In this document: positions 42,501-45,500 of the stretch, piece after piece
How positions within the stretch are numbered: position 1 is the first letter of the stretch
Layout of the letters: every line of letters begins with the position of its first letter
From: an uncultured Alphaproteobacteria bacterium
GTDB taxonomy: Bacteria; Pseudomonadota; Alphaproteobacteria; CAIYWZ01
Direction of reading: 5' to 3'
NCBI GenBank assembly: GCA_964497925.1
Contig: CAZCFE010000001.1
Location: 6,460-70,459, forward strand
DNA: 64,000 bases
Made by a program: the position numbers

Positions 42501-45500
42501 CGGTAAGGTTCAGGGATCTCATAATACAGCCATTCTTTCATATCTTTAACAATAACGGCTTTATCTGTTCCGACTTCTTCTTTCAACTCACGCCACAAAG
42601 CTTCTTCGGGCGTTTCACCTTCATCAATCCCCCCTTGGGGCATTTGCCAACCAATTGGGGATGGTGTTTTGCGTCTTCCCATAAAAATATCCCCATCTCG
42701 ATTGCGTAAGACAATCCCGATACCGTGGCGATACTGGTGCTCCAAATATTTCATATCTAGTCTTTCTTCTTTAATAATACATAAGAAATAGGAGCAAGAA
42801 GAACTCCCTCACTCTTAAATTTCTCATCCAACTCGATTAATTTTTTCAAGACAAATGGTCCAGGAGTCATCATCATTGTAACGTGGCCTTTTGATTTTGC
42901 AAGAGATAAAGCATTTTTAAAGGCATTTTCCACCTCTTCTTGAGATGCATCTTCAAGGATTTCATTATCTATAAAACTATAAGGAACTGTAATTTTAGAA
43001 CCTACCGCTTTTGAAGTTTCTGTAGGCGTTCCATCAATATATGGAATCTTTTTTTCATTAAGCCCTTGAATCAATAAATTTACAGATTTTTCAACTGTTG
43101 AAAATCTCCCTCCAGCATTATTCAAAAGCCCAACAAAAGAATCCCCTTGGGAGATAACCCAATTAAATCTTAGAAGATTTTCTTCATCTGTTTGCCTTGT
43201 TAAAAGAGTCTTTGGCCCAGGGTCCTCTTTTGGGTAACCATTGGGTTCAAGGGGTAAAACAACTAAAACCTCATGATTTTTATCTCGAGACTTTTTACAC
43301 AAGTCTTTTAAATTTGGAGAATGTGGGTTAAATGCAAGAGTCACATATTTAGAAGTCTCAGCAATTGATTTATCAACCAAATCTTGTTTTAACCCCAAAG
43401 AATGAAGAATAATGCTGATAGTTGGTTTCTTGTCAGGATTTTCAAAAGGCGTGATATGTTTTTTCCAATCAGCATCAACCACAGATGCAATAACTGGCGC
43501 TACTTCATTCGTATCCTTTTGAGTTACAATTTTTGTCACATCTGTTCCTGATAGCACCTTATCAGCAACAGGGGCTGGGGTAAATATCTTACTGTACACA
43601 GATAATGACTTCACAAGCTCGAAAGCTCGAACAAGGGGATAATCTTGATCTTCAGGTTTTACAGCTTCTTTCTTATCTTTACCATCTTTATCTCCAGGTT
43701 TTTTCACCTTATCTTTTTCTTTTAAGATCTCAGTTAAGCCCTGATCTGGTTTTAACGCGCCCTTGTAATCTTTTTCTCTAAACCTTTCTTCATCACTAAT
43801 TTTTTCAAATTTAATATAATCTGCAATTAAATCTGGCTCAATTCCTTGAGCCTGAATTGATCTTCCCAACGGGGTATAATAACGCGCTATTGTATATTTT
43901 ATCGCACGATCCCCCATAACAGGCTTGACGGCCTGAACAGAAGCTTTTCCAAATGATTTTGTTCCCATAATAATTGCACGCTTATGATCCTGAAGAGCTC
44001 CTGCTGTAATTTCAGATGCTGATGCAGAGCCTCCATTAATCAAAACAACAACAGGCATTTTAGAATCAACATATTGACCACTATTTGCCATATAATGCTC
44101 AACCTTTCCAGAATCCCTTCCTCTTGTTGATACAATTTCAACATTATCTAGAAAAAGATTGCAAAGTCCAACAGCCTGCTCGATTCGACCTCCCGCATTG
44201 TTACGCAAATCAATAACAATTCCTTGGAATTTGTCTTTAAGTGTTTTCTTAAATGAGTCAATTGCCTCTTTTACCATATCAATTGTTTTTTCATTCATAA
44301 AAGAGCTGATTCGAATATATCCAACCTGGTCTTCGATACGATGTTTGACTGTTTTTACTTTTATAACATCACGTTTAATTTTCATCTCTATTGGATCTTT
44401 TCCTGGGCGATAAATATTCACCTTAACCTCTGATCCAATAGGGCCTCCACGCAATTTCTTAACAGCTTCATCTGTTGTCATGCGTAAAACTGCTTCACCA
44501 TTGATTTTAAAAATATAATCACCACTTTTCAATCCAGCAACAGCGGCTGGAGCATCCTCAATTGGAGCAATTACTTTTATCAACCCATTCTCCATGATAA
44601 ATTCCATACCAATTCCAATAATTTCGCCCTTGGCGCTTTCGTTGAATTCAATATAGTCTTTTGGATTAATATATGCGCAATGAGGGTCTAAAGATGAAAG
44701 CATACCGCCAATCGCGGCCTCCATCAATTTTTCTTTATTCACTTCTTCCACATAGTTTGCCTCAACATCATTTAAGACTTGTTGGAATAAGGGCATAAGA
44801 TCTTTAGGGGGGGGAGTGTCTTTTGTTTTTTTATCCCCCTGTCCAAAAATAGAAAGCGAAAATGAAAAACAAGCAAAAATGAAAAATAAACGCATATAAA
44901 AAAGCTCCTTAGGTGACTAAAATAACCATTTTTTATTTTATCAAAAAACAAAAGAAAGATCCACCAGTATTAATAGTTTTTTAAAGAATTTACACATAAA
45001 ATACTATTGTAATTTTGGAGAACCTGACATGAGAAAAAGCATAACTTTAGCGGTGGTTTTATTATCCCAAAGCCTAATAGCCCAAAGTCAATCCTCAGGA
45101 TCAGAAGCTGCTTTATTTACCGGTATTGCAAAAAGTCTGTTTGGACTGACCGGACAAAATCCAAATCTTATCACACAAGGAATGAATACCGCACAACAAT
45201 TTCAGCAACAAGCGCCCTCCCCCATCTCAAATTCAGCAGCTCAAATTCAAATCCAACAGCTTAGCTCTGCGCAATCAAACCAAGCAGCAATTCAAGCCTG
45301 CGTAAATTCCGGTCTTTCACTTGCAACATGTCAATCGATGAACAAACCTTTAACATCAACAGTCAGAACCACTGATGATGTTCTTTTTGAAACAGCGCTC
45401 AATAAAAGCAAAACAGCAGGCGCATCTGAAATTGTAGAGTTCTTAGATCTGAATTATGTTGCATTTTTAATGGTATCATTTTCCCATGTTCTAGCAAGCT

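What the first reader, a model, noticed from the sequence alone, without database searches (positions are those of the whole stretch)
42757..44895. CtpA protease fused in one reading frame to a YibQ-type divergent polysaccharide deacetylase domain with apparently substituted metal-ligand residues
The 712-aa ORF contains a complete S41 CtpA (signal peptide, PDZ, Ser/Lys region). It then continues with no stop or frameshift into ~270 aa collinear with E. coli YibQ, normally a separate gene that neighbours envC/ctpA-type genes in many proteobacteria. So this looks like a fusion of conserved neighbours. In my by-eye alignment the expected Asp-Asp and His positions read DDFG->HSLG, HMGS->NAGG and GHPHP->MTPGP, i.e. 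a possibly catalytically dead pseudo-enzyme module attached to the protease. This would be a new periplasmic architecture, perhaps with a regulatory or peptidoglycan-binding role.
Basis: partly seen in the sequence, partly recalled or inferred. Interest (0 to 1): 0.65.

Follow-up and report, generated by a model that had tools for sequence, protein, structure and literature searches.

The report
CtpA protease fused to dead deacetylase
One real gene encodes a periplasmic tail-specific protease (CtpA) joined to a catalytically dead copy of the cell-wall deacetylase SddA/YibQ. The two are normally neighbouring genes, so the fusion hints that they work together on the cell wall, but it is a rare variant built from known parts.

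Summary
Window 42757..44895 (-) is one uninterrupted 712-aa ORF. It has a signal peptide, a full CtpA-type S41 protease (PDZ, Ser292/Lys317, C-terminal dimerisation helix), a 38-aa flexible linker and a complete PF04748 (SddA/YibQ-type) domain.

It is not an assembly error. The identical protein occurs in at least two further assemblies, and four orthologues of 66-89% identity keep the fusion. The C-terminal domain shows far fewer non-synonymous than synonymous differences.

In other Alphaproteobacteria the two parts are separate adjacent genes (M23/envC-like, ctpA, yibQ-like, rppH). The fusion removed the membrane anchor and spacer of the downstream gene.

They are not special to the fusion. 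None of 265 nearest standalone relatives keeps more than two of the four ligands. The crystal structure Atu2773 (2QV5) lacks them too, which a 2025 paper already noted.

New points:
- the fusion itself
- loss, in the fusion clade only, of the otherwise near-invariant Asp equivalent to E. coli D179
- an in-frame deletion that removes most of the domain in a sister lineage

The most likely role is a non-catalytic cell-wall or partner-targeting module for the protease; this is inferred. It is a new variant of known kinds, of moderate interest.

The parts
42757..44895 (-). Whole 712-aa fusion ORF (ctpA::pseudo-sddA), stop codon included
44839..44895 (-). Residues 1-19, N-terminal hydrophobic signal-peptide-like segment (MRLFFIFACFSFSLSIFGQ). 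It has no convincing lipobox. It is the only export signal in the protein.
   Evidence: Sequence. The AF2 model has a helix at 2-16 followed by a disordered stretch. The P. aeruginosa CtpA crystal construct aligns from residue 27. No dedicated signal-peptide predictor was run.
44632..44802 (-). Residues 32-88, N-terminal helices (CtpB_N-like / N-terminal dimerisation region)
   Evidence: Pfam PF22694; alignment to 7RPQ; helices in the model
44356..44625 (-). Residues 91-180, PDZ domain
   Evidence: Pfam PDZ_2, PDZ_6 and PDZ
43828..44349 (-). Residues 183-356, S41 protease core. It carries the catalytic Ser292 (GGSAS*ASE, 44020-44022) and Lys317 (SFGK*AS, 43945-43947).
   Evidence: Pfam PF03572, E 7.9e-53. 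Ser292 falls in the column that is Ala in the S302A mutant structure 8SXE. Both residues are invariant in A1 and A2.
43651..43827 (-). Residues 357-415, K/D/E-rich low-confidence loop. It is equivalent to the disordered S10-H6 loop of P. aeruginosa CtpA.
   Evidence: pLDDT below 50; alignment to 7RPQ; PMC8764530
43582..43650 (-). Residues 416-438, C-terminal dimerisation helix of CtpA (DYPLVRAFELVKSLSVY). The leucine-zipper residues are kept: L427/L431 correspond to Pa L426/L430. This is the natural C-terminus of stand-alone CtpA.
43468..43581 (-). Residues 439-476, flexible linker. It derives from the pre-domain segment of the ancestral yibQ-like gene and keeps PAPV...APVIASVVDADW (standalone consensus PAPDP...GPLPxIxxDGRxPW).
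   Evidence: Low pLDDT in both models; alignment with standalone relatives; highest pN of all segments
42772..43467 (-). Residues 477-708, PF04748 SddA/YibQ-type domain without metal ligands (H498, S499, V546, N593, T677) and without the D179 equivalent (L647)
   Evidence: Pfam. 2QV5 matches by sequence at E 2.6e-18. The AF2 model has pLDDT 87. Foldseek gives 2qv5_A at E 5e-18, TM 0.87, rmsd 1.9 A.
42293..42754 (-). Downstream RppH-like Nudix gene, starting 2 nt after the fusion's stop codon. It holds the same position as in genomes where ctpA and yibQ-like are separate.
   Evidence: synteny
40042..42296 (-). Cation-efflux (CDF) gene at 41409..42296 and phosphoglucomutase/phosphomannomutase (PGM/PMM) gene at 40042..41412. 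Each overlaps the previous gene by 4 nt. The block is probably co-transcribed and is conserved downstream in every member of the fusion clade.

Best explanation
SHOWN. This is a genuine single-polypeptide fusion that evolution has maintained. It carries one N-terminal signal peptide. Behind it lies a complete, catalytically equipped CtpA-type S41 protease with N-terminal helices, a PDZ domain, the Ser292/Lys317 dyad and a C-terminal leucine-zipper helix. A roughly 38-residue flexible linker then leads to a full PF04748 domain of the alphaproteobacterial, metal-ligand-less SddA/YibQ subfamily (Atu2773-like).

The fusion arose in the conserved gene cluster M23(envC-like)-ctpA-yibQ-like-rppH. It lost the ctpA stop codon, the spacer between the genes, and the N-terminal membrane anchor plus low-complexity region of the downstream gene. 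The junction lies right after the natural C-terminus of CtpA and just before the conserved 'PAP' pre-domain motif.

INFERRED. The dead deacetylase domain can no longer bind Zn or deacetylate. It keeps the fold and the residues specific to its subfamily, and it shows far fewer non-synonymous than synonymous differences. It most likely acts as a non-catalytic binding module. Its target would be glycan strands of peptidoglycan (the substrate of the active homologue SddA) or a cell-wall protein. In this way it would position the protease, or deliver substrates to it. CtpA relatives degrade peptidoglycan hydrolases such as MepM-type M23 endopeptidases. The domain would thus serve as a built-in counterpart of the separate adaptors LbcA and NlpI, and it would replace the membrane tether of the ancestral standalone protein.

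If the protein forms hexamers as P. aeruginosa CtpA does, several such modules would hang from the assembly on flexible linkers.

Confidence by layer: about 0.95 for the architecture and its origin, about 0.35 for the targeting or adaptor mechanism.
For: ORF and domains.

Independent assemblies and orthologues of 66-89% identity all keep the fusion.

Protease module:
- The N-terminal 440 aa align end to end with P. aeruginosa CtpA 7RPQ (E 8.5e-94), including the C-terminal helix.
- Ser292 falls in the column of the S302A mutant. Lys317 and the zipper leucines L427/L431 are kept.

C-terminal domain:
- Pfam gives E 1.5e-33. 2QV5 matches by sequence at E 2.6e-18.
- The AF2 model has pLDDT 87.4.
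- Foldseek top hits are 2qv5_A (TM 0.87, rmsd 1.9 A) and 2nly.
- All four ligand residues required for SddA activity (PMC12440217) are replaced.

Selection: window against L004 gives pN 0.075 and pS 0.60 for residues 491-712, and pN 0.030 for the S41 core.

Origin from neighbouring genes:
- S41 and PF04748 are separate, adjacent ORFs in L030, L041, L042, L044, L045, L048, L049 and L050, with Nudix downstream in L041 and L042.
- The envC-ctpA-PA5135(sddA) operon of P. aeruginosa shows the same arrangement (PMC12569750).
- 193 of 214 standalone relatives carry an N-terminal hydrophobic anchor that the fusion lacks.
- The linker is homologous to the standalone pre-domain motif.
- Subfamily-specific residues W477, P483, F484, R537, N573, R576 and the DPGP loop are retained.

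The full-length model has pTM 0.45 and low-confidence linkers, which fits two modules joined flexibly.

CtpA relatives degrade MepM-type hydrolases in P. aeruginosa and in the alphaproteobacterium Z. mobilis.
Against: No experiment or co-evolution signal here shows that the two modules interact or that the domain binds peptidoglycan.

The sister lineage (P0006/P0007, L001) deleted most of the domain in frame but kept CtpA. The module is therefore dispensable in at least one lineage.

The fusion clade has lost the otherwise near-invariant Asp equivalent to E. coli D179. That residue is needed in E. coli for septal localisation (PMC12440217). At least one ancestral interaction surface has therefore changed.

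The domain is a divergent member: 116 bits against 150-248 bits for the 10 long relatives scanned.

dS is saturated (above 1), so dN/dS values are only rough.

The fusion could be a by-product of genome streamlining with no functional coupling.
Confidence: 0.5

Rival explanations
1. Passenger fusion. A deletion during genome streamlining joined two neighbouring genes. The ligand-less SddA-like domain continues whatever CtpA-independent regulatory job it had (for example modulating amidase activation). It merely borrows CtpA's signal peptide and uses CtpA as its tether. The protease gains nothing.
For: The clade has compact, overlapping genes (4-nt overlaps) and low GC. The ancestral membrane anchor was lost, so the domain needs another export signal. 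The linkers are flexible and the full-length pTM is 0.45, so there is no predicted fixed contact. A sister lineage dropped the domain without losing CtpA. PMC12440217 proposes an EnvC-linked regulatory role for the inactive Atu2773 that does not involve CtpA.
Against: The fusion has been kept across orthologues down to 66% identity, with far fewer non-synonymous than synonymous differences in the domain. ctpA-yibQ adjacency is conserved across several phyla, which itself suggests a functional link. The D179-equivalent residue, tied in E. coli to localisation and partner effects, is lost specifically in the fusion clade. That fits a changed mode of action better than an unchanged one.
Confidence: 0.3
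2. Polyprotein precursor. The fusion is exported through the single signal peptide. It is then cut in the flexible linker, possibly by its own tail-specific protease activity, releasing separate CtpA and pseudo-SddA proteins.
For: The linker at 439-476 is long, of low confidence and fast evolving. The C-terminal part has no signal peptide, no TM segment and no Met between residues 400 and 500. S41 proteases act on exposed or unstructured regions, and self-processing is described for H. pylori CtpA (title and abstract).
Against: There is no direct evidence. The linker keeps conserved motifs (VLSGTDVTK, WKK.ITPF) rather than looking like a disposable spacer. CTPs usually start from a free C-terminus, which here is the folded domain's end.
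Confidence: 0.12
3. The C-terminal domain is still an enzyme (a deacetylase or other hydrolase) that uses different residues.
For: The fold is fully preserved. A His (H498) sits at the D31 position in the window protein and in P0002. The invariant H541-E542 and E550 are retained.
Against: All four residues whose mutation abolishes SddA activity are replaced. The replacements differ among the five fusion orthologues (H/H/S/Q/N, V/V/S/S/S, N/T/T/S/T). They are hypervariable among 265 relatives, with 195 distinct combinations, which is the pattern of unconstrained positions. The homologous crystal structure 2QV5 has no Zn (PMC12440217).
Confidence: 0.04
4. Sequencing or assembly artefact: really two genes, joined by a missed stop codon or frameshift.
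For: None was found. The only prior support is that the two parts are separate genes in most genomes.
Against: The identical ORF occurs on contigs from at least two further sequencing runs. Five divergent orthologues from different samples have the same continuous frame. The downstream part has no start context, no signal peptide and no anchor of its own.
Confidence: 0.01

Closest known systems
Agrobacterium tumefaciens Atu2773 (PDB 2QV5) and the alphaproteobacterial ligand-less PF04748 subfamily
   Same: It is the best sequence and structure match for residues 477-708. Both lack the Zn ligands. Both share the subfamily-specific residues W477, P483/F484, R537, N573, R576 and the DPGP loop. Both occupy the same genomic slot, between ctpA and rppH.
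   Different: Standalone members are separate proteins of about 410 aa (median of those of at least 330 aa), with an N-terminal membrane anchor and a low-complexity spacer. Here that part is replaced by the whole of CtpA. The fusion clade has also lost the Asp equivalent to E. coli D179, which is kept in 253 of 265 standalone relatives. Identity is only about 30%.
E. coli SddA (YibQ), septal denuded-glycan-strand GlcNAc deacetylase (PMC12440217)
   Same: Same Pfam family and fold, periplasmic, and genetically linked to the envC/ctpA neighbourhood.
   Different: SddA needs D31, D32, H78 and H123 for activity and D179 for septal localisation. All five are replaced here by H498, S499, V546, N593 and L647. 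SddA is a standalone protein with a C-terminal disordered tail. E. coli has no ctpA between envC and sddA.
Pseudomonas aeruginosa CtpA with its adaptor LbcA (PDB 7RPQ, 8SXE), encoded in the envC-ctpA-PA5135(sddA) operon
   Same: Residues 27-433 align over the whole of CtpA at E 8.5e-94. The Ser/Lys dyad, the disordered S10-H6 loop and the C-terminal zipper helix are all conserved. The gene order ctpA then sddA-like is the same.
   Different: Pa CtpA ends after the zipper helix and depends on a separate TPR lipoprotein (LbcA) for activation and substrate delivery. PA5135 is a separate gene. Here the downstream gene product is attached covalently. No LbcA homologue was searched for or seen.
E. 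coli Prc with its adaptor NlpI, as a concept: an S41 protease plus a dedicated adaptor that controls peptidoglycan hydrolases
   Same: The proposed logic is the same: a tail-specific protease directed to cell-wall hydrolases by a non-catalytic partner (introduction of PMC13101528).
   Different: Prc belongs to a different S41 subgroup (106-108 bits only). NlpI is a TPR lipoprotein unrelated to PF04748. The adaptor role of the fused domain is only inferred.
CE4-family pseudoenzymes such as Bacillus anthracis BA3943 (PDB 6HM9, 6HPA)
   Same: They are a precedent for deacetylase-fold proteins that have lost catalytic residues yet are retained (weak structural hits).
   Different: They belong to a different family (classical NodB/CE4, not PF04748), occur in Gram-positive bacteria and are not fused to a protease. 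Foldseek E is only about 1e-3.

Membership tests
S41 C-terminal processing peptidase, CtpA type (TIGR00225 prc subfamily; Pfam PF03572 + PDZ) | PDZ and Peptidase_S41 domains above the curated thresholds, collinear with a characterised CtpA | tested here: met
   PF03572 scores 178.9 bits (cutoff 24) and PDZ_2 scores 45.2 bits (cutoff 27). TIGR00225 scores 312 bits (cutoff 218.6). 7RPQ matches at E 8.5e-94 over query residues 27-433.
S41 C-terminal processing peptidase, CtpA type (TIGR00225 prc subfamily; Pfam PF03572 + PDZ) | Catalytic Ser/Lys dyad | tested here: met
   Ser292 aligns with the residue mutated in the S302A structure 8SXE, and Lys317 lies in SFGKAS. Both are invariant in A1 and A2.
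S41 C-terminal processing peptidase, CtpA type (TIGR00225 prc subfamily; Pfam PF03572 + PDZ) | Export to the periplasm (signal peptide) | tested here: inconclusive
   There is an N-terminal hydrophobic segment at 1-19 followed by a polar stretch. No signal-peptide predictor is available.
S41 C-terminal processing peptidase, CtpA type (TIGR00225 prc subfamily; Pfam PF03572 + PDZ) | Proteolytic activity on C-terminally exposed substrates | not testable with these tools
   Needs biochemistry.
PF04748 divergent polysaccharide deacetylase family (fold level) | HMM match above the gathering score over the whole profile | tested here: met
   116.2 bits against 27.5, profile positions 1-210 of 212.
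PF04748 divergent polysaccharide deacetylase family (fold level) | Three-dimensional fold of 2QV5 / 2NLY | tested here: met
   The AF2 model has pLDDT 87.4. Foldseek gives 2qv5_A at E 5e-18, TM 0.87, rmsd 1.9 A, and 2nly at E 2.7e-11, TM 0.87.
SddA-type active deacetylase of denuded glycan strands (E. coli YibQ) | Zn-binding and catalytic tetrad D31, D32, H78, H123 | tested here: not met
   The residues are H498, S499, V546 and N593. The five fusion orthologues read HSVN, HSVT, SSST, QSSS and NSST. The requirement for these residues is from PMC12440217.
SddA-type active deacetylase of denuded glycan strands (E. coli YibQ) | Asp equivalent to D179 (septal localisation and amidase inhibition) | tested here: not met
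   Residue 647 is L, S, L, N or H in the fusions. It is D in 253 of 265 relatives and in all catalytic members checked.
SddA-type active deacetylase of denuded glycan strands (E. coli YibQ) | Gene linked to an envC-type M23 activator gene | tested here: not met
   No M23 or gpmI homologue was found by tblastn in the window or in L001, L004 or L006. The upstream neighbours differ among clade members. The rest of the genome was not available.
SddA-type active deacetylase of denuded glycan strands (E. coli YibQ) | GlcNAc deacetylase activity on denuded glycan strands | not testable with these tools
   Needs an enzyme assay. The sequence predicts no activity.
Alphaproteobacterial ligand-less (Atu2773-like) PF04748 subfamily | Lacks the tetrad but keeps subfamily-specific conserved residues and the pre-domain W..Y.RPF motif | tested here: met
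   W477, P483, F484, R537, H541, E542, E550, D558-P561, N573 and R576 are retained. The nearest hits are all of this subfamily, and the named ones are Alphaproteobacteria.
Alphaproteobacterial ligand-less (Atu2773-like) PF04748 subfamily | Separate protein with its own N-terminal membrane anchor and low-complexity spacer | tested here: not met
   193 of 214 standalone relatives have the anchor. Here CtpA replaces it, and there is no hydrophobic segment between residues 400 and 490.
Alphaproteobacterial ligand-less (Atu2773-like) PF04748 subfamily | Genomic position between ctpA and rppH | tested here: met
   The Nudix gene starts 2 nt after the fusion's stop codon. The order is the same in L041 and L042.

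The most novel reading that the evidence does not exclude
The fusion is a Rosetta stone. Throughout the Alphaproteobacteria, and perhaps wherever ctpA and sddA-like genes are adjacent, the SddA-type protein would be the dedicated partner of CtpA. It would be a glycan-strand-reading adaptor or activator that decides where and when the protease destroys peptidoglycan hydrolases. In this clade the two have become one self-contained, cell-wall-sensing protease. This would give a function to the conserved but enigmatic inactive Atu2773-type proteins. It would also identify the missing adaptor of alphaproteobacterial CtpA.
Probability: 0.17. Interest if true: 0.7.

Novelty: new variant of a known kind. 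Interest (0 to 1): 0.4.

Why it matters
Both halves belong to families under active study in cell-wall biology. CtpA/Prc-type proteases set the levels of peptidoglycan hydrolases. SddA (YibQ) was characterised only in 2025, as a deacetylase of denuded glycan strands that modulates septal amidases.

It is unknown why ctpA sits between envC and sddA in many bacteria, and what the catalytically dead alphaproteobacterial SddA homologues do. A naturally maintained covalent fusion of the two is classical comparative-genomic evidence that they act together. It turns that idea into simple experiments in tractable relatives (Agrobacterium, Caulobacter, Zymomonas, Pseudomonas): interaction, co-localisation and substrate-range tests.

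The practical reach is limited. The fusion is confined to a small uncultured lineage, the pseudo-enzyme state was already known, and a sister lineage has deleted most of the domain.

Tried and rejected
1. A word-indexed homology search with the C-terminal 273 aa alone returned nothing, not even the protein itself. I treated this as a tool limitation. I replaced it with the exhaustive representative search and a profile search.
2. The ten longest relatives of the C-terminal domain (592-693 aa) looked like possible independent S41 fusions. Pfam shows only PF04748 behind long N-terminal spacers, so I rejected this.
3. L030 (a Deltaproteobacteria MAG) matched query residues 36-709 and looked like a second fusion. 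It is two ORFs in different frames that overlap by 11 nt, and its YibQ is catalytic.
4. The combined alignment A4 placed the YibQ-like sequences on the S41 region. I discarded it and used A5 and A7 instead.
5. Two metagenome scans found no further members of the fusion clade.
6. Attempts to name the organism failed. Cluster look-ups carry no names. The GTDB scan gave only 'uncultured Alphaproteobacteria bacterium T8_bin-474' for the 66% orthologue. The window has no rRNA.
7. tblastn for the M23/envC-like and gpmI genes found nothing in the window or in clade contigs. This is uninformative for the rest of the genome.
8. The AFDB Foldseek search, meant to look for the architecture in UniProt, was unavailable.
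9. The Liberibacter yeast-two-hybrid (Y2H) interactome paper, the Campylobacter 0661 paper and the Caulobacter 'CtpA' papers (a different protein) gave nothing on a CtpA-PF04748 link.
10. The promoter and terminator scan gave only weak consensus matches. I did not use it as evidence.
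Full report
**1. The observation**

Window 42757..44895 on the minus strand is a single 712-aa ORF.
- Pfam finds CtpB_N-like (32-77), PDZ (95-167), Peptidase_S41 (191-356, E 7.9e-53) and Polysacc_deac_2 PF04748 (495-705, E 1.5e-33). The PF04748 hit covers profile positions 1-210 of 212 and scores 116 bits against a cutoff of 27.5.
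- NCBIfam places the N-terminal part in the prc/C-terminal-processing-peptidase subfamily, at 312 bits against a cutoff of 218.6.
- GC content is about 0.31-0.44 (mostly 0.32-0.41) across the gene and its flanks, with no compositional break.

**2. It is not an artefact**

- The identical protein is encoded on contigs from two further sequencing runs.
- Fused orthologues exist with 89, 69, 67 and 66% identity: P0002-P0005, plus P0270, the 711-aa form in the P0004 cluster that matches the L006 contig. They are 693-717 aa long, come from other samples and all carry both domains.
- One of these loci, L006, is an NCBI MAG labelled 'uncultured Alphaproteobacteria bacterium T8_bin-474', with a 711-aa ORF.
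- The part after residue 439 has no Met, no hydrophobic segment and no signal peptide of its own. It can only reach the periplasm as part of the fusion.

**3. The protease half**

- Residues 27-433 align without large gaps to the whole of P. aeruginosa CtpA (7RPQ, E 8.5e-94).
- Ser292 lies in the column that is Ala in the S302A mutant structure 8SXE. Lys317 lies in SFGKAS.
- The disordered S10-H6 loop corresponds to the low-confidence K/D/E-rich stretch at 357-415.
- The C-terminal dimerisation helix H6, with its zipper leucines L426/L430, corresponds to helix 419-437 with L427/L431 (PMC8764530).

The protease module is therefore complete, and the fusion point is at the natural C-terminus of CtpA.

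**4. The C-terminal half**

- By sequence it matches Atu2773 of A. tumefaciens (2QV5, E 2.6e-18) and, weakly, BH1492 (2NLY).
- An AlphaFold2 model built with 76 homologues has pLDDT 87.4 and pTM 0.84. Only residues 440-466 are disordered.
- Foldseek against the PDB returns 2qv5_A (E 5e-18, TM 0.87, rmsd 1.9 A) and 2nly (E 2.7e-11) far ahead of classical CE4 deacetylases.
- The full-length model has pTM 0.45 with low-confidence segments at 356-415 and 439-474. This fits two folded modules on a flexible tether.

**5. The catalytic residues**

YibQ is now SddA, a periplasmic deacetylase of denuded glycan strands. D31/D32, H78 and H123 are each required for its activity (PMC12440217).

Aligned to the E. 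coli protein, the window protein reads H498, S499, V546 and N593, with T677 for the first His of GHPHP.

The same is true of the whole neighbourhood in sequence space.
- An exhaustive search of 1.84 billion cluster representatives found 6378 relatives. The fusion clade is one cluster, and the next best hits are only 27-35% identical.
- Of 265 nearest relatives, 169 keep none of the four ligands, 82 keep one, 14 keep two and none keeps three or four. There are 195 different residue combinations among them.
- Those relatives that carry names are Alphaproteobacteria.
- Non-alphaproteobacterial members picked up along the way (L030, L048, L049, L051) keep DDHH plus the GHPHP histidine.
- PMC12440217 already points out that Atu2773 lacks the Zn ligands, and it suggests a regulatory role for the protein.

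The pseudo-enzyme claim is therefore right, but the state is ancestral and has already been published for one member.

**6. Origin of the fusion**

- In standalone relatives with long contigs the gene order is rsfS-rlmH-gpmI-M23-S41(433 aa)-PF04748-Nudix.
- In every comparison locus with upstream sequence (L030, L041, L042, L044, L045, L048, L049, L050) a separate S41 ORF lies directly upstream of the PF04748 ORF.
- P. aeruginosa has envC-ctpA-PA5135(sddA) (PMC12569750).
- Standalone proteins are about 410 aa long (median of those of at least 330 aa). 193 of 214 have an N-terminal hydrophobic anchor, followed by a low-complexity spacer and a conserved pre-domain motif, L.PAPDP.LVE....GPLP.I..DGR.PW.VYARPF.
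- The fusion linker still reads TPAPVAD...APVIASVVDADWKKHITPF.

The event therefore removed the ctpA stop codon, the spacer between the genes, and the anchor and low-complexity spacer of the downstream gene. Everything from 'PAP' onwards was kept. Downstream, Nudix-CDF-PGM follow in all clade members with 2-nt gaps or 4-nt overlaps. The upstream neighbours differ, and no M23 gene is nearby.

**7. Is the domain still used?**

- Between the window and its 89% orthologue (L004), the domain has pN 0.075 against pS 0.60. The S41 core has pN 0.030 and the linker 0.156. Synonymous sites are saturated, so the ratios are only rough. Even so, non-synonymous differences are clearly far fewer than synonymous ones.
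- The domain keeps the residues that are near-invariant and specific to the ligand-less subfamily: W477, P483, F484, R537, N573, R576 and the DPGP loop.
- Two things point to change or relaxation. First, the Asp equivalent to E. coli D179 is replaced by L, S, L, N or H in the five fusion proteins. It is D in 253 of 265 standalone relatives and in all catalytic members checked. In E. coli D179A is catalytically active but fails to localise to the septum or to inhibit NlpD-AmiC.
- Second, in the sister lineage (P0006/P0007, 61-62% identity, same synteny) about 165 residues of the domain were deleted in frame. Only the first strand and helix and the last strand remain.

**8. Mechanism**

Shown: one exported polypeptide carries an intact tail-specific protease and a folded, metal-ligand-less SddA-type domain on a flexible tether.

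Inferred: the domain is a binding module, not an enzyme.
- Its active homologue works on denuded glycan strands at the septum.
- CtpA relatives degrade peptidoglycan hydrolases such as MepM-type M23 endopeptidases in P. aeruginosa and in the alphaproteobacterium Z. mobilis, usually with the help of a separate adaptor, LbcA or NlpI.

The simplest reading is that the domain tethers or directs the protease to the cell wall or to a wall-bound partner. It would take over the role of the lost membrane anchor and possibly that of an adaptor. I put this at about 0.35.

The main rival, at about 0.3, is a passenger fusion produced by genome streamlining, in which the domain keeps a CtpA-independent role. 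A polyprotein that is cut in the linker is possible (about 0.1). Residual catalysis (about 0.04) and an artefact (about 0.01) are unlikely.

**9. Comparison with known systems, and novelty**

- The protein is a member of the S41 CtpA group: domains, dyad and collinearity were all tested and met.
- It is a member of PF04748 at the fold level.
- It fails the defining tests for an SddA-type enzyme: the tetrad, the D179 equivalent and envC linkage.
- Its domain belongs to the Atu2773-like ligand-less subfamily, apart from the missing anchor.

I found no paper that describes an S41-PF04748 fusion. None of the 120 closest S41 homologues beyond the clade carries both domains. Among the 150 closest PF04748 representatives, none of the 10 longest, the only plausible fusion candidates by length, has an S41 domain. 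The 120 best profile-search hits are annotated with PF04748 alone. Independent fusions among more distant relatives cannot be excluded, because the AFDB library was unavailable.

Verdict: a real, rare, new variant assembled from two known kinds. Its value is as comparative-genomic evidence that CtpA and SddA-type proteins act together. Interest 0.4.

Noticed in passing
window 42955-42957 (residue 647); alignment: The Asp equivalent to E. coli SddA D179 is required for septal localisation and amidase inhibition but not for catalysis. It is D in 253 of 265 standalone ligand-less relatives and in all catalytic members checked. In the five fusion proteins it is L, S, L, N or H. A family-wide invariant has been lost only where the domain is tethered to CtpA.
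   Followed up: partly
L001 6001-7632 (P0006; also P0007): A sister lineage has the same ctpA-Nudix-CDF-PGM synteny but a 518-543-aa protein. About 165 residues of the PF04748 domain were deleted in frame. Only the first strand and helix and the last strand remain (HMM 51 bits). This is a snapshot of domain loss after fusion.
   Followed up: partly
P0121-P0386 (265 standalone relatives); L041, L042: The whole alphaproteobacterial PF04748 subfamily lacks the Zn-ligand tetrad (0 of 265 keep three or more). The four positions are hypervariable, with 195 combinations. Other positions are more than 95% conserved (H541-E542, E550, DPGP, N573, R576). This points to an old, widespread pseudo-enzyme family with a conserved non-catalytic function.
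   Followed up: partly
A5 alignment, columns before the domain; window 43468-43581: Standalone relatives share a strongly conserved pre-domain motif, L.PAPDP.LVE....GPLP.I..DGR.PW.VYARPF, between the low-complexity spacer and the fold. Its role is unknown. The fusion keeps only PAP, PVI and W...PF.
   Followed up: no
L030 4143-7287: In a Deltaproteobacteria MAG the S41 gene and a catalytic (DDHH-retaining) YibQ gene overlap by 11 nt in different frames. ctpA-sddA adjacency and probable translational coupling therefore extend beyond Alpha- and Gammaproteobacteria.
   Followed up: partly
window 45029-45883 (+): A 284-aa ORF with an N-terminal hydrophobic segment and a Gln/Ser-rich region is transcribed divergently from the fusion gene. 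It has no Pfam hit. An ORF of the same length and position is conserved in L004 (5019-5873).
   Followed up: partly
window 39538-39858 (-): A 106-aa ORF with an N-terminal hydrophobic segment has no Pfam hit. It is conserved after the PGM gene in L004 (11008-11328) and is followed by the only strong terminator-like hairpin of the region (39511-39529).
   Followed up: no
window 45885-45958 (-); also tRNAs at 6454-6526, 6534-6605, 21551-21624: A tRNA-Gln (CTG) gene sits between the 284-aa ORF and the metallo-beta-lactamase-fold gene. There are three more tRNA genes elsewhere in the window. The window has no rRNA, so the organism could not be named.
   Followed up: partly
window 40042-44895 (-): The four genes fusion-Nudix-CDF-PGM are packed with a 2-nt gap and two 4-nt overlaps. 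This block is conserved in every clade member, while the upstream neighbours differ each time (ParE toxin and autotransporter, MiaB/PhoH/YbeY, Fer4/NifU). The ancestral gpmI-M23 part of the cluster is no longer linked.
   Followed up: partly
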